DNA from: a virus
Length of the DNA: 32,702 bases
UHGV virus genome: UHGV-1394528
Strand: one strand, 5' to 3'
Position 1 is the stretch's first letter. Each line of letters starts with the position of its first letter. The notes beneath the pieces were generated by a model, which had not been told where the DNA came from, did no database searches, and worked only from the letters and a program-made list of their open reading frames with translations. Of this stretch, positions 6,354 through 28,441 are shown one piece after another. A program made the translations under genes and the position numbers.

Positions 6354-6378
6354 TCCTACTCCTGTAACATTAAATTTT

Positions 6379-8847
6379 TTAGCAGAAGAAGAACGGGGAT
6401 TCTAGCACTTGCCGGATGTCCAAAGTGCCCACTTCCGGCATGTCCAGGTCCGTCAAGTCTGCCCCGGCTGCTGCTGCCGCGCGAGTAATGTAGCCAAGCA
6501 GGTCATTCTCTTCATACAGGCGCACAAACTGCTCACGGATGTGCCTATGCATAGCGTCAACGTCAGCTGCGTGAGTAGCCAGCGAGTCGTGAATAGGCAC
6601 AATGTCCAACCCCTCCGCAGCACAGAGCACCATCATCAAGTGCGTACTGTCCAGGCTATGCACAAAGTTCGGGGCAATCCCGGAGGCTGCCTTGCGCTTG
6701 TTGCAAGTTTTGAAGTCCCGGTTGTGTACCAGTACCGCTGACAGGTTCATGCAGTCAATACGTACGCGCACTTCTTCACGCTGCGTGTAGCGGTTCATTA
6801 CGAGCCCACCCAGCGGCGTATACCACTGCAGATGCTGGCTTGCCGGTACACGCCTAGCGAGGTTCTGCAAGTACCCCATAACTGCGGCTGCGGCTGGGTT
6901 TGCCTCCTCGATAGCAGTGCGCATACGCGGAGCCAGGTAGCATGACAAGTTCCACAGACTGTTAGTCTCAGTACCCTCGTACCCCTCAGCGCAAGCGCCT
7001 TCGAAGATGTAGTCGCTGCAGCTGCGCACAGTGGCGCTGTAGAAGTAGGTCATACTAGGGCGCTTGGTCATGCTGCGGGTGATTTCGTTCTCTCTCCAGT
7101 ACGTGCTCTGGATAACGAAATCCTCCTTGTCCAGGTCCAGTATCACCTTCTCGTCCGTACGGCGCTTCACGTCCATGTACAGGTCCGCTTTCTTATCATT
7201 ACCCTCCCAGTACAGGTTCGTCAAGCGTCCGCCCACAGGGTCTCTCAGGAGCGCTGAGAGATGCTGTCCACCTGAGTTTGTAGCGTCCATAGCAACTGGG
7301 ATTCGGCTAATATGCTCTTCTGGGCATCCAGAACGAACCGCATTAACCAAGTCGATAGCGGCGGCCAGCAGGCACCAGGGGCTATCCGCAGAGGAAAAAG
7401 CAGGGGCATCAAGAGGAGAATCCGCGAGCCTCTCAATCTCTGCATAGTTCGCATCAACCCAAGCTGCACGGTCTTCGAATAGGGTTTTGTCATAACCAAA
7501 GCAAGTGGCGACGTGCACTTTAAGCCAGAAAAGTCCGCGCTCTCCCAGAGGCTTGCCACGTCCGAATTCAAGAAGGGCTTTCTGCAAATCAGAACCTTGG
7601 GGATGCAGCGAGGACTTGAAGTACAGGCGGTAGCGCCAGTCCACACAAGTCGGGAAGTACAGGGCTTTCTCATCTTTGAATTCCTCCGCCATTTCCAGCG
7701 TGGTCAACAGGCTGCGTAGTTGTGACACACGCTTACGGTCTGCGCTGTACCATAGGGACATGCGCGTCTTCCACTCACCGAAGCGGCCCAGTTCTTCTTC
7801 GGTGTAGTTCTCTTTTGGTACTCCATCCAAGTACCACTCCGGTTTAGGCTCTGGTACTGAGCGGGGCATGCCCACCCCAATACCCAGGGCCCGTGCTTCT
7901 TGCACCAGTTCCAGTATGCGCTTATTAATACGGTATGGGGTTTCCTGTGCCTTATTAAGCGCCTTCTTGATGCCGTCCGCGGACTTAAATGCTTCCGCTA
8001 CTTCACGGAGTCGCGCGCGGTCGATGTGCGAGTTGTGATAGGTCCCGCGATTGTCGATGGGGGTAAGGTACCCGCCATCCCACATAGTGGTGTGCTGTAC
8101 CGGTGGCACCAGCATAGGCGGCTTCATGGTTACGGTATCAGCGGACTCTACCAGTTTCTGGAAGGCCTCCATAACATCGTCAGCCGGGTAGAGCATGCTC
8201 AGGTTCCCACTACAGTTCTTCCATTGGAACAGGCCAGTCTCAAACACCGCGGCACATAGCAGCCGACCTACTGAGATATTCTGGGAGTTGGTCCATGGCT
8301 CGTGCCCATAGTGCACGTTCTCAGCACTGGCCCGCAGCGTACGCAGGATGTGCGTGGGAGACTTGGTCTTACGCTCCGTAAGGTACTCGTACACACGGTC
8401 CATGTACGCCGGAGCCACGTTGCGTAACTGCAGGGCCAGCAGTTCCGATTGTACGTTCCGGCCCAGCGCGGACATTACCGCCTGTGCAGTCTGGCGGCGG
8501 CTAGCGGACTCGCCAGGAGCTACGCTAAATGCCTCAAACATTGTGCATAGGCTCAGGGTGGTCAGGACATCCAAGGGGACTAAGCGCAGGAACCGGCGGT
8601 ACTTACCGCCAATGCCCGGGGCTTTTACATTTCGCATCTCATCGATAGCGGCGGCGGCCACCTCATATGCCGAGGTGAGCATACGCTGCGTCATCGGCAG
8701 GTTCATAATCCCACCGTTCTGCAATGCGTCCGTAATCAGCTTACGTGCCCGCTCGATTCCGCGAATCTTATAGGTCTCTTCAAGCTCCAGCTGGCGTTTC
8801 ACCAGTGCTTCCTCTGGTACTACAACCGTATTCAGGGCGCTAATCAT
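6379..8847 (-). CDS. single-subunit DNA-directed RNA polymerase (T7 RNAP family)
   Basis: 822 aa; motif A-like DATNSGGQHLSALLRD (T7: DGSCSGIQHFSAMLRD) and motif C-like IHDSLATH (T7: HDSFGT). Confidence 0.9.
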   Translation of the reverse strand: MISALNTVVVPEEALVKRQLELEETYKIRGIERARKLITDALQNGGIMNLPMTQRMLTSAYEVAAAAIDEMRNVKAPGIGGKYRRFLRLVPLDVLTTLSLCTMFEAFSVAPGESASRRQTAQAVMSALGRNVQSELLALQLRNVAPAYMDRVYEYLTERKTKSPTHILRTLRASAENVHYGHEPWTNSQNISVGRLLCAAVFETGLFQWKNCSGNLSMLYPADDVMEAFQKLVESADTVTMKPPMLVPPVQHTTMWDGGYLTPIDNRGTYHNSHIDRARLREVAEAFKSADGIKKALNKAQETPYRINKRILELVQEARALGIGVGMPRSVPEPKPEWYLDGVPKENYTEEELGRFGEWKTRMSLWYSADRKRVSQLRSLLTTLEMAEEFKDEKALYFPTCVDWRYRLYFKSSLHPQGSDLQKALLEFGRGKPLGERGLFWLKVHVATCFGYDKTLFEDRAAWVDANYAEIERLADSPLDAPAFSSADSPWCLLAAAIDLVNAVRSGCPEEHISRIPVAMDATNSGGQHLSALLRDPVGGRLTNLYWEGNDKKADLYMDVKRRTDEKVILDLDKEDFVIQSTYWRENEITRSMTKRPSMTYFYSATVRSCSDYIFEGACAEGYEGTETNSLWNLSCYLAPRMRTAIEEANPAAAAVMGYLQNLARRVPASQHLQWYTPLGGLVMNRYTQREEVRVRIDCMNLSAVLVHNRDFKTCNKRKAASGIAPNFVHSLDSTHLMMVLCAAEGLDIVPIHDSLATHAADVDAMHRHIREQFVRLYEENDLLGYITRAAAAAGADLTDLDMPEVGTLDIRQVLESPFFFC

Positions 8848-19519: not shown

Positions 19520-19957
19520 TTATAGCCTCCAAGTTTTAGCTTTCAACACACCGTGCACTGCTGACACACTCACGCCAAGGCTGGCAGCTATAGCCGGTAT
19601 ACCGTGCTCCCTGCCGTACCGTCTGTAGTTCTCCCTGATATAGCCCACCTGTTGCTCCGTTAGCTTGGAGTACCCATTATGCTCTCCTTTAGAAACCCCG
19701 CGTTTAGCCCTACCCCTGGCAATACAGTCATGGACGTTATCCTTGACCGTACCTAATTCTAAATGCTCGGGATTAATGCATCTCGGGTTGTCACACTTAT
19801 GGCGCACAACTAGCCCCACTATGCTCTCCGGAGATATATCGTTCGCCGAGCAATACACCTTTCTATGCAGGGGTATCTTCCGCCCTTTGAACGTGGTATT
19901 TCCGTAACCCTTTGGTCCGCCTTTCTGTTTGTGCTCTTTACACGCGCCTAATACCAT
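19520..19957 (-). CDS. HNH homing endonuclease
   Basis: VVRHKCDNPRCINPEHLELGTVKDNVHDCIARGR motif plus C-terminal HTH-like segment; sits between primase and helicase genes, overlapping primase 3' end by 20 nt. Confidence 0.8.
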   Translation of the reverse strand: MVLGACKEHKQKGGPKGYGNTTFKGRKIPLHRKVYCSANDISPESIVGLVVRHKCDNPRCINPEHLELGTVKDNVHDCIARGRAKRGVSKGEHNGYSKLTEQQVGYIRENYRRYGREHGIPAIAASLGVSVSAVHGVLKAKTWRL

Positions 19958-26740: not shown

Positions 26741-27157
26741 TCACCGGGAGCAAAAAGAGTAAGCAGACCCCCAAAGGTCTGCGTGCAGTAAACTATTGTA
26801 GTCCCCATAAGTCACGTCGAACTCTCGCCAGTTAGTATCGTACTCAGGACTAGCCAATAACTCATCCTTTGTGAAGCATCTCCCTTCCTGAATCTGTGCT
26901 AAGTGTATGGCCCGGTGAGTGTCAGCGCTAACCAGTATCAGGTTATTGAAGTCACAGTTAAGGCGGTTACTGTCACAGTGATGTACGTGATAGCCAGAAC
27001 CGTAGCTAGTGATTCCCAGAGCATCCATAACCACGGCCCTATGCAGCGCCACAGTCTTATAGTCTCTCTTACCTCGCTTATTCACATACTCAGGCCCAGC
27101 ACCATTAATCACTGGATAACCTTCCTTATCAACCACAATCTTAAATGTTCTAGCCAC
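26741..27157 (-). CDS. HNH endonuclease
   Basis: HVHHCDSNRLNCDFNNLILVSADTHRAIH (H-N-H core); GTG start with SD AAGGAG. Confidence 0.7.
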   Translation of the reverse strand: MARTFKIVVDKEGYPVINGAGPEYVNKRGKRDYKTVALHRAVVMDALGITSYGSGYHVHHCDSNRLNCDFNNLILVSADTHRAIHLAQIQEGRCFTKDELLASPEYDTNWREFDVTYGDYNSLLHADLWGSAYSFCSR

Positions 27158-27399
27158 AACAATATCTCCTTACATAGTGATTAGTAGCGTAACCATAGCG
27201 ACGATATCCCGGAGGGATAGGAGCGGAGGTTACAAGATTCTAGGTAATGCTTCCCTCCCTACGGTCAGTCATACAGGGCATTACTAGGGGATACTAGTGA
27301 CTACTAGTGAGTAGTAGTAAGTAGTGTGTATATAGTGCCCTAAAACCCTCCTACTCCTGTAACATCATTTCATGACAGCTTTCGAATGAAAGTAAGAGC

Positions 27400-27830
27400 A
27401 AAGGGATAGCAAAGAGATAGCGCCGGGATAGTGTTGGGTGAGGATGTGCGCCCTAGTGGGGAGCGCGCAGCGTAGCATATAATCGGCACAATGTAAAGCA
27501 CTAGGGATAGCCAGTGGATAGCCTAGTGCATACTAGGGATAGCACCGTGACGCACTACAGCGCACTAGGCAGGCCCACTATGGCCCCACAATGCAGGCAC
27601 TAGGCGGGCCCACTATGGACGCGCAAAATAAGCAAGGCAGAGCGCACCCCTACGGCCCACAGGGAGCGCACAGGGATAGCCCCTAGTGCCCCGTAGAGCG
27701 CACAGGAGCCACTCAGTGCCACGCACAGGCCAAGCCGTGGGGCAGCACTAGCGATAGCCCCAGCGCAGCGCAGGGAGCCACTGAGGCCCTCTGAGGCTTC
27801 CGCTATAGCCACGGTCTTAGCTGCCGTGGC
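27400..27830. repeat. repeat-dense CTAG-rich non-coding region (iteron-like GGGATAGC copies, 24-bp tandem repeat, short palindromes)
   Basis: At least 7 copies of (G)GGATAGC-like octamers (27403, 27414, 27425, 27504, 27516, 27536, 27673, 27751); direct repeat gcactaggcRggcccactatggMc at 27562-27585 and 27597-27620; GAGCGCAC x3. Confidence 0.6.
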
Positions 27831-27979
27831 GCTCCACACCTCAGAGAGCGCCCTAGGGCCGTCTAGACGTCTAGGCACCCACCCCACCCCTCCTTTTATG
27901 CGCTAGGCACCCCCTATGGGGGCAATTGGCGTCGTTGAGGGTGAGGGAGGCTCAAGGGCGAGTATAATAATTTTTGGTT

Positions 27980-28441
27980 TCAGATATACACCTGCCCCGG
28001 GGTGAAGGCCTTGTGTTGCTCTTGACGTTTCTCTAGTACCCACTTGCAGATAACTTCGTAGGAGCTGTGCTTCTTCATGTAACGCTTACCGTCCTTCCAG
28101 AACTCCCCGCGCCAGCAGGTGCCAGTGTAGTATACACCCCTAGGATGTTCCCGCTTAGACCTGCGTGCGTTACAGTTGTTTTCGCTAACCGTAGCTAAGC
28201 GCAGGTTCTCTAATCTGTTGTCACCGGGGTTTTGGTTGATGTGGTCCACCACATATCCGTCTGGAATAGGCCCGTTGTGTAGTTCCCAGATGAGGCGGTG
28301 TGCCTGTATCTTTCTACCAGATACCTGTACCACCCAGTAGCCACGAGTGTTGCGGGTACCCGCTGGAGCACCGGCGCGCCTACCCTTGAGCCACACCAAG
28401 CAGCTAGGGGATGTTGTGTCATATTTGATGTTCATAGACAT
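27980..28441 (-). CDS. HNH homing endonuclease (HNH_3/AP2-like)
   Basis: AHRLIWELHNGPIPDGYVVDHINQNPGDNRLENLRLA; paralog of the HNH at 2699-3175. Confidence 0.8.
   Translation of the reverse strand: MSMNIKYDTTSPSCLVWLKGRRAGAPAGTRNTRGYWVVQVSGRKIQAHRLIWELHNGPIPDGYVVDHINQNPGDNRLENLRLATVSENNCNARRSKREHPRGVYYTGTCWRGEFWKDGKRYMKKHSSYEVICKWVLEKRQEQHKAFTPGQVYI

What the first reader, a model, noticed from the sequence alone, without database searches (positions are those of the whole stretch)
27403..27758. Iteron-like array of (G)GGATAGC octamers
At least seven copies of GGGATAGC or one-mismatch variants in both local contexts within about 360 bp. Arrays like this are typical of replication origins, packaging (pac/terminase small subunit) sites, or regulator binding sites.
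Basis: seen in the sequence. Interest (0 to 1): 0.55.

Follow-up and report, generated by a model that had tools for sequence, protein, structure and literature searches.

The report
Phased short repeats at phage genome end
The GGGATAGC copies are a real, conserved and helically phased repeat array in the non-coding left end of a KP34-like Klebsiella phage, the counterpart of the short-repeat arrays long known next to the terminal repeat of phage T7, whose function has never been settled.

Summary
There are eight copies of GGGATAGC (four exact, four with one mismatch) in 27403-27758, all on the + strand. None of 2000 local dinucleotide shuffles reached eight. A ninth copy lies at 27214.

The window is a circularly permuted assembly of a Drulisvirus (KP34-like Autographiviridae) with its genes on the - strand. 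The physical left end maps to 27946. The direct terminal repeat (DTR) maps by homology to 27946-27640. The experimentally defined KP34 strong phage-RNA-polymerase promoter lies at 27367-27352.

The array therefore has two copies inside the DTR and two clusters between the DTR and that promoter. Spacing is mostly 11 or 21 bp. In 37 related left ends the motif (G-CTATCC-C-T on the gene strand) keeps one orientation, with a median of six copies. The last copy sits 46 bp before the promoter core.

T7 (CCTAAAG), SP6 (CTTAGT), phiKMV and phiKDA1 have equivalent arrays. phiKDA1 uses the same heptamer, inverted.

My best reading is a phased protein-binding array at the concatemer junction that serves DNA maturation or packaging. 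This is inferred, not shown. A classical iteron origin is not supported. It is a new member of a known kind, of modest interest.

The parts
27640..27946 (-). Direct terminal repeat (DTR), 307 bp, present once in this circularly permuted assembly. The physical left end is at 27946 (+/-1), read on the - strand as CCTCACCCTCAACG...
   Evidence: The reverse complement from 27946 matches the first bases of KP34, KpV41, KpV48, KpV71, SAA231, JKT5 and AttikonH4. The annotated DTR ends of all seven map to the same alignment column (...GGGGTGCGCTC|TGCCTTGCTTATTTTG), which corresponds to window 27640 (27638-27640). This is inferred by homology; the window itself holds only one copy.
27910..27922 (.). 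Terminal palindrome CCCCCATAGGGGG, 25-37 nt from the left end.
   Evidence: It is invariant in the 8-phage alignment. The same element is at nt 26-38 of T7 and nt 25-37 of phiKDA1. SP6 has CCCCATAGGG at about nt 29-38.
27751..27758 (+). Repeat copy GCGATAGC (1 mismatch), inside the DTR.
   Evidence: The homologous GGGCTATCGCTAGTG is conserved in 7 of the 8 aligned phages; KpV71 reads GGGCTGTCGCTAGTG.
27673..27680 (+). Repeat copy GGGATAGC (exact), inside the DTR, 33 bp from its inner boundary.
   Evidence: It is present in some relatives only and lies in an indel-rich part of the DTR.
27504..27543 (+). Cluster A, three copies: 27504 GGGATAGC, 27515 TGGATAGC, 27536 GGGATAGC. Start-to-start spacing is 11 and 21 bp. 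The copies are interleaved with the CCTAGT-NNNN-ACTAGG near-palindrome.
   Evidence: About 90% pairwise identity among 37 related left ends.
27442..27498 (-). Nearly invariant 57-bp block between the clusters (CTTTACATTGTGCCGATT.TATGCTACGCTGCGCGCTCCCCACTAGGGCGCACATCC). Function unknown.
   Evidence: Most columns are at least 90% conserved in 37 sequences. It does not pass the sigma-70 consensus scan on either strand, and there is no Rfam match.
27403..27432 (+). Cluster B, three copies at exact 11-bp spacing: 27403 GGGATAGC, 27414 GAGATAGC, 27425 GGGATAGT. It ends 46 bp upstream of the phage promoter core.
   Evidence: Copy number varies from 1 to 5 between relatives, about 11 bp per copy. The last copy is at -46 in 32 of 37 sequences.
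27352..27367 (-). Strong phage-RNA-polymerase promoter TGATGTTACAGGAGTA, identical to KP34 promoter S2. The predicted start is the G at 27351. By position it is the counterpart of T7 phiOL.
   Evidence: Exact match. KP34 S2 (nt 475-490) was defined by 5'-RACE and in vitro transcription (PMC6834552). T7 phiOL is annotated at nt 405.
27214..27221 (+). Ninth copy, GGGATAGG (1 mismatch), downstream of the promoter. Relatives carry one or two copies at +110 to +270.
27562..27626 (+). Two copies of a 30-bp direct repeat (GCACTAGGCrGGCCCACTATGG..), 35 bp apart, just inside the unique side of the DTR boundary.
   Evidence: family D2, 87% identity.

Best explanation
Shown: the octamers are copies of a roughly 9-bp non-palindromic site (G-CTATCC-C-T on the gene strand). 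They form a conserved, single-orientation array phased at 11 or 21 bp in the non-coding left end of a KP34-like (Drulisvirus) genome. Two copies lie inside the direct terminal repeat. Two clusters lie between the repeat's inner boundary and the leftmost strong phage-RNA-polymerase promoter. This is the same layout as the CCTAAAG array of T7 (terminal repeat, then array, then phiOL) and the CTTAGT array of SP6.

Inferred mechanism: the copies are binding sites for a phage-encoded DNA-binding protein, most plausibly the small terminase subunit or another DNA-maturation factor. Bound on one face of the helix, it would coat or bend the DNA that flanks the inner DTR boundary in replicative concatemers. 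Genomes of this group are generally ejected left end first and hence packaged left end last. A translocating terminase would therefore meet cluster B, then cluster A, and then the DTR. The array would act like lambda cosB/cosQ or the P1 pac hexamers, marking where the sequence-specific terminal cuts and the duplication of the repeat must occur.
For: The array is real and not explained by composition. The window is a Drulisvirus with T7-type genes. The left end and DTR boundary are mapped through seven independently annotated relatives.

The copies flank the DTR inner boundary at -118, -40, +97, +118, +129, +208, +219 and +230 bp. In 37 distinct related left ends the median is 6 forward copies upstream of the promoter (range 3-8), and only 1 reverse copy occurs in total.

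The core is invariant and the 3-4 nt spacers vary. Successive copies are spaced 11 bp (56 cases), 21 bp (24), 10 or 12 bp (18) and 33 bp (5). Cluster copy number changes between relatives by about 11 bp per copy. The clusters sit in a block that is about 90% identical, against the 75-79% genome-wide identity reported for this genus (PMC4411677).

There is no array upstream of the right DTR copy and none at the second copy of the phage promoter. The array therefore goes with the terminus, not with promoters in general.

phiKDA1, from a different genus and host, has the same heptamer flanking its DTR boundary, with no KP34-type promoter nearby and in inverted orientation. That fits recognition of duplex DNA better than a strand-specific RNA or transcription signal.

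T7, SP6 and phiKMV have arrays of different, lineage-specific units at the same place. That fits a co-evolving phage protein better than a shared host factor. Lambda terminase recognises repeated R sites in cosB and needs cosQ for termination (PMC2366019).
Against: No binding or genetic data exist for this array. To my knowledge none establishes a function for the T7 arrays either. Small terminases of T7-like phages are not known to bind specific repeats (own knowledge).

The fixed 46-bp distance of the last copy to the promoter, and the highly conserved sequence between them, could mean the array serves the promoter or an origin instead. The inverted orientation in phiKDA1 shows that polarity relative to the cut site is not conserved, which is awkward for a directional packaging signal. 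Copy number is flexible (3-8), so no single copy is essential. The packaging direction is inferred from the general last-in-first-out rule, not measured for this phage.
Confidence: 0.45

Rival explanations
1. The array is a transcription-control element. It would hold binding sites for a phage or host regulator that modulates the adjacent strong phage promoter or early host-polymerase transcription. Alternatively it would act as a roadblock, pause or termination array that stops late transcription reading across the concatemer junction into the early region, analogous to the T7 concatemer-junction pause site.
For: The last copy is fixed 46 bp upstream of the promoter core in 32 of 37 phages, and the intervening sequence is nearly invariant. 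The clusters flank a conserved TTTACA-N17-TACGCT element preceded by TG. DTR copies read GCTATCCCTGTG, loosely like the CTATCTGTT found at or near the end of the T7 and SP6 repeats. A weak hairpin plus T-run sits exactly at the DTR boundary.
Against: T7-type promoters need no activators (own knowledge). The second copy of the same promoter (6357-6370) has no array. The sigma-70 scan finds no promoter on either strand. There is no contiguous ATCTGTT. phiKDA1 has the motif on the opposite strand and no KP34-type promoter next to it, which argues against a strand-specific pause signal.
Confidence: 0.2
2. The array is part of a replication origin. The leftmost phage promoter plus the AT-richer DNA downstream would form a T7-type transcription-activated origin, like the secondary origin at T7 phiOL. 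The repeats would serve as accessory or iteron-like sites that load or position replication proteins.
For: Direct repeats in helical phase are typical of origins. GC falls from 60-70% in the DTR and array to 38-40% at 27280-27400, around and just downstream of the promoter. The position matches T7 phiOL, which by my own knowledge can act as a secondary origin.
Against: No Rep/O-type initiator or recognisable DNA-binding protein was found among the 20 early, middle or other proteins scanned. T7-type origins need no iterons (own knowledge). The unit is about 9 bp, not 17-22 bp. Two copies lie inside the DTR, and in phiKDA1 most do. The extended consensus does not fit a DnaA box: C and T stand where DnaA needs A and C.
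Confidence: 0.15
3. The array has no function. The repeats would be a by-product of replication slippage or unequal recombination in a non-coding terminal region, or of local composition.
For: Copy number varies between relatives in 11-bp steps and the DTR region is rich in indels. Several other short repeat families share the region.
Against: 0 of 2000 local shuffles reach the observed count. The core is invariant while the spacers vary. Orientation is kept in 36 of 37 phages. The block is more conserved than the reported genome-wide identity (PMC4411677). The same heptamer is kept in another genus on another host.
Confidence: 0.04

Closest known systems
Short-repeat arrays at the left end of phage T7 (CCTAAAG heptamers, 'SRL'; Dunn & Studier 1983, own knowledge; checked here in NC_001604)
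   Same: Both are Autographiviridae genomes with a DTR. In both, one short unit is repeated in one orientation: 11 copies in T7, of which 3 are inside the repeat and 8 lie between its end (nt 160) and the leftmost phage promoter phiOL (nt 405). Here there are 2 copies inside the DTR and 6 between it and the KP34 S2 promoter. Both share the terminal CCCCCATAGGGGG palindrome. The function is unproven in both.
   Different: The unit sequences are unrelated (CCTAAAG versus GCTATCC). The T7 period is 13 bp, whereas here it is 11 or 21 bp (helical). Here the copies form two tight clusters separated by an invariant 57-bp block.
SP6 (CTTAGT), phiKMV (CTCCCTG) and phiKDA1 (GGATAGC) left-end arrays
   Same: All are arrays of a lineage-specific 6-8-mer just inside or after the left DTR. 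SP6 has an 11-12-bp period. phiKDA1 (Koutsourovirus, host Enterobacter) uses the same heptamer as this window.
   Different: In phiKDA1 the heptamer is inverted relative to the genome end, most copies lie inside the DTR, and no KP34-type promoter follows. The SP6 DTR length is taken from my own knowledge.
Terminase recognition arrays: lambda cosB R1-R3 and cosQ, and the P1 pac hexamers
   Same: These are short repeated elements flanking the site where terminase cuts concatemers. They are bound by the small terminase subunit, and cosQ is needed for the terminal cut (PMC2366019; P1 from own knowledge).
   Different: No binding protein is known here. T7-like terminases generate DTRs rather than cohesive or headful ends. 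There is no sequence similarity.
Iterons of plasmid and phage replication origins
   Same: They are direct repeats in helical phase next to an AT-richer stretch.
   Different: Iterons are usually 17-22 bp and lie next to or inside the gene of their initiator. Here the unit is about 9 bp, no initiator gene was found, and the replication module is of the T7 type.

Membership tests
T7-type terminal short-repeat array | The genome is an Autographiviridae genome with direct terminal repeats and a single-subunit RNA polymerase. | tested here: met
   Megablast hits to Drulisvirus genomes. RNA polymerase, DNA polymerase, helicase and portal families were found. The left end and DTR boundary were mapped through seven annotated relatives.
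T7-type terminal short-repeat array | There are many copies of one 6-9-bp unit, all in one orientation, in non-coding DNA. | tested here: met
   9 copies, all on the + strand. It is the top over-represented k-mer. Indels are not multiples of three and there is no conserved ORF.
T7-type terminal short-repeat array | Copies lie within the terminal repeat and between it and the leftmost phage-polymerase promoter. | tested here: met
   2 copies lie in the DTR (27640-27946) and 6 lie between 27403 and 27543. The promoter is at 27352-27367. The T7 layout was verified.
T7-type terminal short-repeat array | The array is conserved in relatives. | tested here: met
   37 distinct Drulisvirus left ends carry a median of 6 copies in the same orientation.
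Replication-origin iterons | There are direct repeats in helical phase. | tested here: met
   Spacings of 11 bp (56 cases), 21 bp (24) and 33 bp (5).
Replication-origin iterons | A cognate initiator (Rep / lambda-O type) is encoded nearby. | tested here: not met
   PHROGs and Pfam scans of 20 proteins found HNH endonucleases, primase, helicase, DNA polymerase, RNA polymerase, a peptidase and unknowns, but no initiator. Small proteins of unknown function cannot be excluded.
Replication-origin iterons | There is an adjacent AT-rich unwinding element. | tested here: inconclusive
   GC is 38-40% at 27280-27400, against about 54% for the genome. This stretch also holds the promoter and the start of its transcript.
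DnaA-box array | Copies match TTATNCACA. | tested here: not met
   Only one copy (CTATCCACT) matches 7 of 9 positions. In the consensus, the two positions after CTATCC are C (78%) and T (71%), where the DnaA box has A and C.
Terminase recognition site (cosB/cosQ, pac) | Repeated elements flank the terminase cut sites. | tested here: met
   Copies lie from -118 to +230 bp around the DTR inner boundary. phiKDA1 shows the same arrangement.
Terminase recognition site (cosB/cosQ, pac) | The elements are specifically bound by the small terminase subunit and are required for cutting or packaging. | not testable with these tools
   This needs EMSA or footprinting and genetics.
Class II pause/termination signal of T7-type RNA polymerases | A contiguous ATCTGTT lies on the non-template strand at the end of the repeat. 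| tested here: not met
   The window has GCTATCCCTGTG, not ATCTGTT. The motif is on the opposite strand in phiKDA1.

The most novel reading that the evidence does not exclude
The lineage-specific heptamer arrays at the left ends of T7-like phages (CCTAAAG in T7, CTTAGT in SP6, GCTATCC in KP34-like phages) may be loading platforms for a dedicated, co-evolving phage protein. That protein would define where the terminal repeat ends, acting as a cosQ/cosB-like signal for the terminal cut and for duplication of the repeat. This would explain a feature of T7 genomes that, to my knowledge, has had no assigned function since 1983. The helical phasing and the flipped orientation in phiKDA1 give a way to identify the binder by co-variation.
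Probability: 0.25. Interest if true: 0.6.

Novelty: new member of a known kind. Interest (0 to 1): 0.35.

Why it matters
KP34-like phages are widely used as therapeutic candidates against Klebsiella, and their RNA polymerase is used for RNA synthesis. Their genomes are increasingly rebuilt synthetically. Anyone who trims, re-circularises or refactors the left end needs to know which non-coding elements are conserved and probably cis-essential: the repeat boundary, two repeat clusters, an invariant block and the phiOL-like promoter. The comparison also shows that short-repeat arrays next to the terminal repeat are a general feature of Autographiviridae, each with a lineage-specific unit. That turns an old unexplained feature of T7 into a question that co-variation analysis and binding assays can address.

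Tried and rejected
1. Chance or composition was rejected by local and whole-window shuffles.

2. Coding sequence was rejected. Indels of 11 bp and larger, and variable DTR lengths, occur in the relatives, and the small ORFs annotated in some records are not conserved.

3. A known RNA family was excluded: there is no Rfam match at E<=1.

4. A sigma-70 promoter or terminator was tested with the consensus scan. No promoter was found on either strand, and only weak hairpins were found, one of them at the DTR boundary.

5. DnaA boxes were rejected from the extended consensus.

6. A class II (ATCTGTT) pause signal was rejected: the similarity is only loose and the orientation flips in phiKDA1.

7. 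Two IMG/VR scans for paired or tripled GGATAGC (inspected) returned mostly unrelated material. This included coding 12-nt tandem repeats, the EBV oriP family of repeats, and marine-phage CCGTGGGATAGCC iterons.

8. Literature searches for the motif, for Drulisvirus terminal regions and for the T7 arrays found no description of this array and no open-access account of T7 SRL function. One paper was not held.

9. I looked for an array upstream of the right DTR copy and at the second phage promoter. Neither has one.

10. I looked for an initiator or a DNA-binding protein among the early genes. None was recognisable.

Full report
**1. The observation.**
The + strand of 27403-27758 carries GGGATAGC exactly at 27403, 27504, 27536 and 27673. 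One-mismatch copies lie at 27414, 27425, 27515 and 27751. There are none on the - strand. In 2000 dinucleotide-preserving shuffles of those 356 bp the mean was 0.63 and the maximum 4, so none reached 8.

The exact heptamer GGATAGC occurs 5 times here and only 7 times in the remaining ~32 kb on both strands. In an unbiased k-mer count of the whole 787-bp non-coding stretch, CTATCC, CTATCCC and CTATCCCT are the most over-represented words. CTATCCCT occurs 5 times there and nowhere else in the window. A ninth copy lies at 27214-27221.

The region also holds other repeat families: CTAGTGC/GCACTAG in both orientations, GTGCGCTC, GTGGGCC and a 30-bp direct repeat.

**2. What the window is.**
All long ORFs are on the - strand. 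They include a single-subunit RNA polymerase, DNA polymerase, DnaB-like helicase, primase, portal, tail fibre/spike, endolysin and three HNH endonucleases. Megablast finds 248 phage records, 232 of them Klebsiella phages of the KP34 group (Drulisvirus, Autographiviridae). Several records break exactly inside the finding's neighbourhood. Query position 1947 (window 27946) aligns to nucleotide 1 of AttikonH4, and the next base aligns to the last base of Henu2_3.

**3. Mapping the genome end.**
The reverse complement read from 27946 (CCTCACCCTCAACGACGCCAATTGCCCCCATAGGGGG...) matches the first bases of KP34, KpV41, KpV48, KpV71, SAA231, JKT5 and AttikonH4. All seven records carry an annotated direct terminal repeat, of 192 to 297 bp. 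Despite the different lengths, all seven annotated repeat ends fall on the same alignment column...GGGGTGCGCTC|TGCCTTGCTTATTTTG. That column is window 27640 (27638-27640).

The window is therefore a circularly permuted assembly with the repeat collapsed to one copy, spanning 27946-27640 (307 bp). This is an inference from homology, because the window holds only one copy.

**4. The promoter.**
Lu et al. defined the KP34 strong promoters by 5'-RACE and in vitro transcription as T(A/G)ATGTTACAGGAGTA. S2 lies at KP34 nt 475-490 (PMC6834552). The exact S2 sequence is at window 27367-27352 on the - strand. A second exact copy of the 14-nt core follows the RNA polymerase gene at 6370-6357.

**5. Anatomy on the gene strand (position 1 = window 27946).**
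- DTR at 1-307, with copies at 189 (GCTATCG) and 267.
- A 2 x 30-bp repeat.
- Cluster A at 404, 425 and 436.
- An almost invariant 57-bp block.
- Cluster B at 515, 526 and 537, with exact 11-bp spacing.
- A conserved CTTTCATTCGAAAG palindrome.
- The promoter at 580-595.
- An AT-richer stretch (38-40% GC, against 60-70% in the repeat and array), with one more copy at 727.

**6. Conservation.**
A pattern scan of IMG/VR with the conserved terminal 17-mer gave 53 loci. Together with the GenBank records, these gave 37 distinct left ends that contain the promoter. Every one carries forward GCTATC[CG] copies upstream of the promoter. The median is 6 and the range 3-8, and only one reverse copy occurs in total.

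The last copy sits 46 nt before GTTAC... in 32 of 37, and the next at -57 in 27 of 37. Across 107 distinct instances the consensus is G-CTATCC-C-T, while the 3-4 nt between copies vary. Spacings between successive copies are 11 bp (56 cases), 21 bp (24), 10 or 12 bp (18) and 33 bp (5), which amounts to helical phasing.

Cluster B ranges from 1 to 5 copies, about 11 bp per copy. Cluster A ranges from 1 to 4. The blocks that carry the clusters are about 90% identical on average. The genus-wide nucleotide identity is reported as 75-79% (PMC4411677). These are the marks of a selected, redundant, protein-binding array.

**7. What the array goes with.**
No copies lie upstream of the right-hand DTR copy, either in this window or in KP34. 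None accompany the second promoter copy.

Enterobacter phage phiKDA1 (Koutsourovirus, same subfamily) has the same left terminus and a 267-bp DTR. It carries GGATAGC at 143, 155 and 166, with GATAGC variants at 178 and 224, all inside the repeat. Further GGATAGC copies lie at 326, 349 and 381, with an AATAGC variant near 393, beyond the repeat. So the same heptamer again flanks the boundary, but in the opposite orientation and with no KP34-type promoter nearby. The array is thus tied to the terminal repeat rather than to the promoter. It probably acts as duplex DNA rather than as a strand-specific signal.

**8. Comparison with known systems.**
In the T7 sequence, CCTAAAG occurs 11 times in one orientation. 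Three copies are inside the 160-bp repeat and eight lie between it and phiOL at nt 405, mostly 13 bp apart. SP6 has CTTAGT 12 times, with five consecutive copies at exactly 12-bp spacing (nt 260-308) and 11-bp steps further on, starting about 85 bp beyond its repeat. phiKMV has CTCCCT(G) eight times between its 414-bp repeat and its host promoters. T7, SP6, phiKDA1 and this window also share the CCCC(C)ATAGGG(GG) palindrome about 25-38 nt from the left end.

The finding is therefore the Drulisvirus member of a feature general to Autographiviridae and first noted in T7 (Dunn & Studier 1983, own knowledge). I found no description of the GCTATCC array, and no open-access account of a function for the T7 arrays.

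**9. Mechanism.**
What is shown is a conserved, phased, single-orientation array that straddles the inner DTR boundary and ends at a fixed distance from the phiOL-like promoter.

What is inferred is that it binds a phage-encoded protein. The argument is that the unit differs between phage lineages infecting related hosts but is shared by two genera of one subfamily. I further infer that it serves DNA maturation or packaging at the concatemer junction, like lambda cosB/cosQ (PMC2366019) or the P1 pac hexamers (own knowledge). Phages generally package first the end that is ejected last, and T7-like phages eject the left end first (own knowledge). A translocating terminase would therefore cross the array just before reaching the repeat where it must cut. 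I give this about 0.45.

The rivals are as follows:
- A transcription-control or roadblock function tied to the promoter or to read-through across the junction (0.2). The fixed 46-bp spacing supports it. Against it are the orientation flip, the absence of an array at the other promoter, and the negative sigma-70 scan.
- A phiOL-like transcription-activated origin with accessory repeats (0.15). Phasing and the GC drop support it. Against it are the lack of any initiator gene, the 9-bp unit, and the copies inside the repeat.
- No function (0.04).
- DnaA boxes and the class II ATCTGTT signal were tested and not met.

**10. Verdict.**
A cis-acting binding array is well supported. The packaging or terminus option fits best by position. 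A strict iteron is not supported.

This is a new member of a known kind of feature, ordinary for a T7-type genome end. It is apparently undescribed for KP34-like phages. It also bears on an old, still open question about T7 genome ends.

Noticed in passing
window 27946/27947: The window is a circularly permuted assembly. The physical genome ends meet here, with the right-end HNH gene (27980-28441) on one side and the left end on the other. The direct terminal repeat is collapsed to a single copy.
   Followed up: yes
window 6357-6370 (- strand): A second exact copy of the KP34 strong-promoter core ATGTTACAGGAGTA lies 9 bp after the stop of the RNA polymerase gene (6379-8847), presumably driving the structural genes. 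No GGATAGC copies accompany it.
   Followed up: partly
window 27910-27922; L062 nt 26-38; L063 nt 25-37; L285 nt ~29-38: The palindrome CCCCCATAGGGGG, about 25-38 nt from the left end, is shared by this phage, T7 and phiKDA1. SP6 has it in shortened form. phiKMV has CCCCCGTAGG. It is likely a conserved end-processing element of Autographiviridae.
   Followed up: partly
window 27523-27538 and relatives (alignment): Between copies 1 and 2 of cluster A lies a 16-bp near-palindrome, CCTAGT-NNNN-ACTAGG. Its arms are invariant and its central 4 nt vary. In addition, GCACTAG...CTAGTGC encloses copies 2 and 3. CTAGTGC/GCACTAG forms a second motif family that occurs in both orientations.
   Followed up: partly
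window 27442-27498 and 27379-27392: There is an almost invariant 57-bp block containing TTTACA-N17-TACGCT preceded by TG, and a GC-rich hairpin-like GCGC..GCGC. There is also an invariant CTTTCATTCGAAAG palindrome between cluster B and the promoter. No function is assigned. Neither passes the sigma-70 scan and neither has an Rfam match.
   Followed up: partly
window 27637-27653 (- strand): A weak hairpin followed by CTTGCTTATTTTG sits exactly at the inferred inner boundary of the terminal repeat. The boundary sequence GTGCGCTC also occurs twice more inside the repeat.
   Followed up: no
L063 (phiKDA1) nt 143-394: The same heptamer GGATAGC is arrayed around the DTR boundary of a phage from another genus and host, but inverted relative to the genome end. 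Three copies there read CACAGG(G/T/A)ATAG, loosely resembling the 3' half of the KP34 promoter (ACAGGAGTAG).
   Followed up: partly
alignment of 37 left ends: The left-end phage promoter occurs in variants (GATGTTACAGGAGTAGG, GAAGTAACCGGAGTAGG, GAAGTTACCGGAGTAGG). These may track the two RNA polymerase specificity-loop subgroups reported for the genus (PMC4411677).
   Followed up: no
window 26741-27157, 27980-28441, 19520-19957 (- strand): There are three HNH endonuclease genes. One is the first gene after the left-end non-coding region, where it is present in AttikonH4 but absent in KP34. One is the last gene before the right end. They are probably mobile homing-type insertions.
   Followed up: no
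window 27348-27357 (+ strand): The reverse complement of the KP34 promoter reads CCTACTCCTG, which resembles the nick-site consensus CCTACTCCGG reported for phiKMV-like phages (own memory of Kulakov et al. 2009). A nick was reported in the Drulisvirus fHe-Kpn01 at nt 7873 (PMC7291057).
   Followed up: no
L070 nt 330-610 and L208 nt 2350-2560 (IMG/VR marine contigs): Unrelated phage contigs carry classical-looking iteron arrays of CCGTGGGATAGCC in 11-bp tandem pairs. The shared core with this finding is probably coincidental.
   Followed up: no
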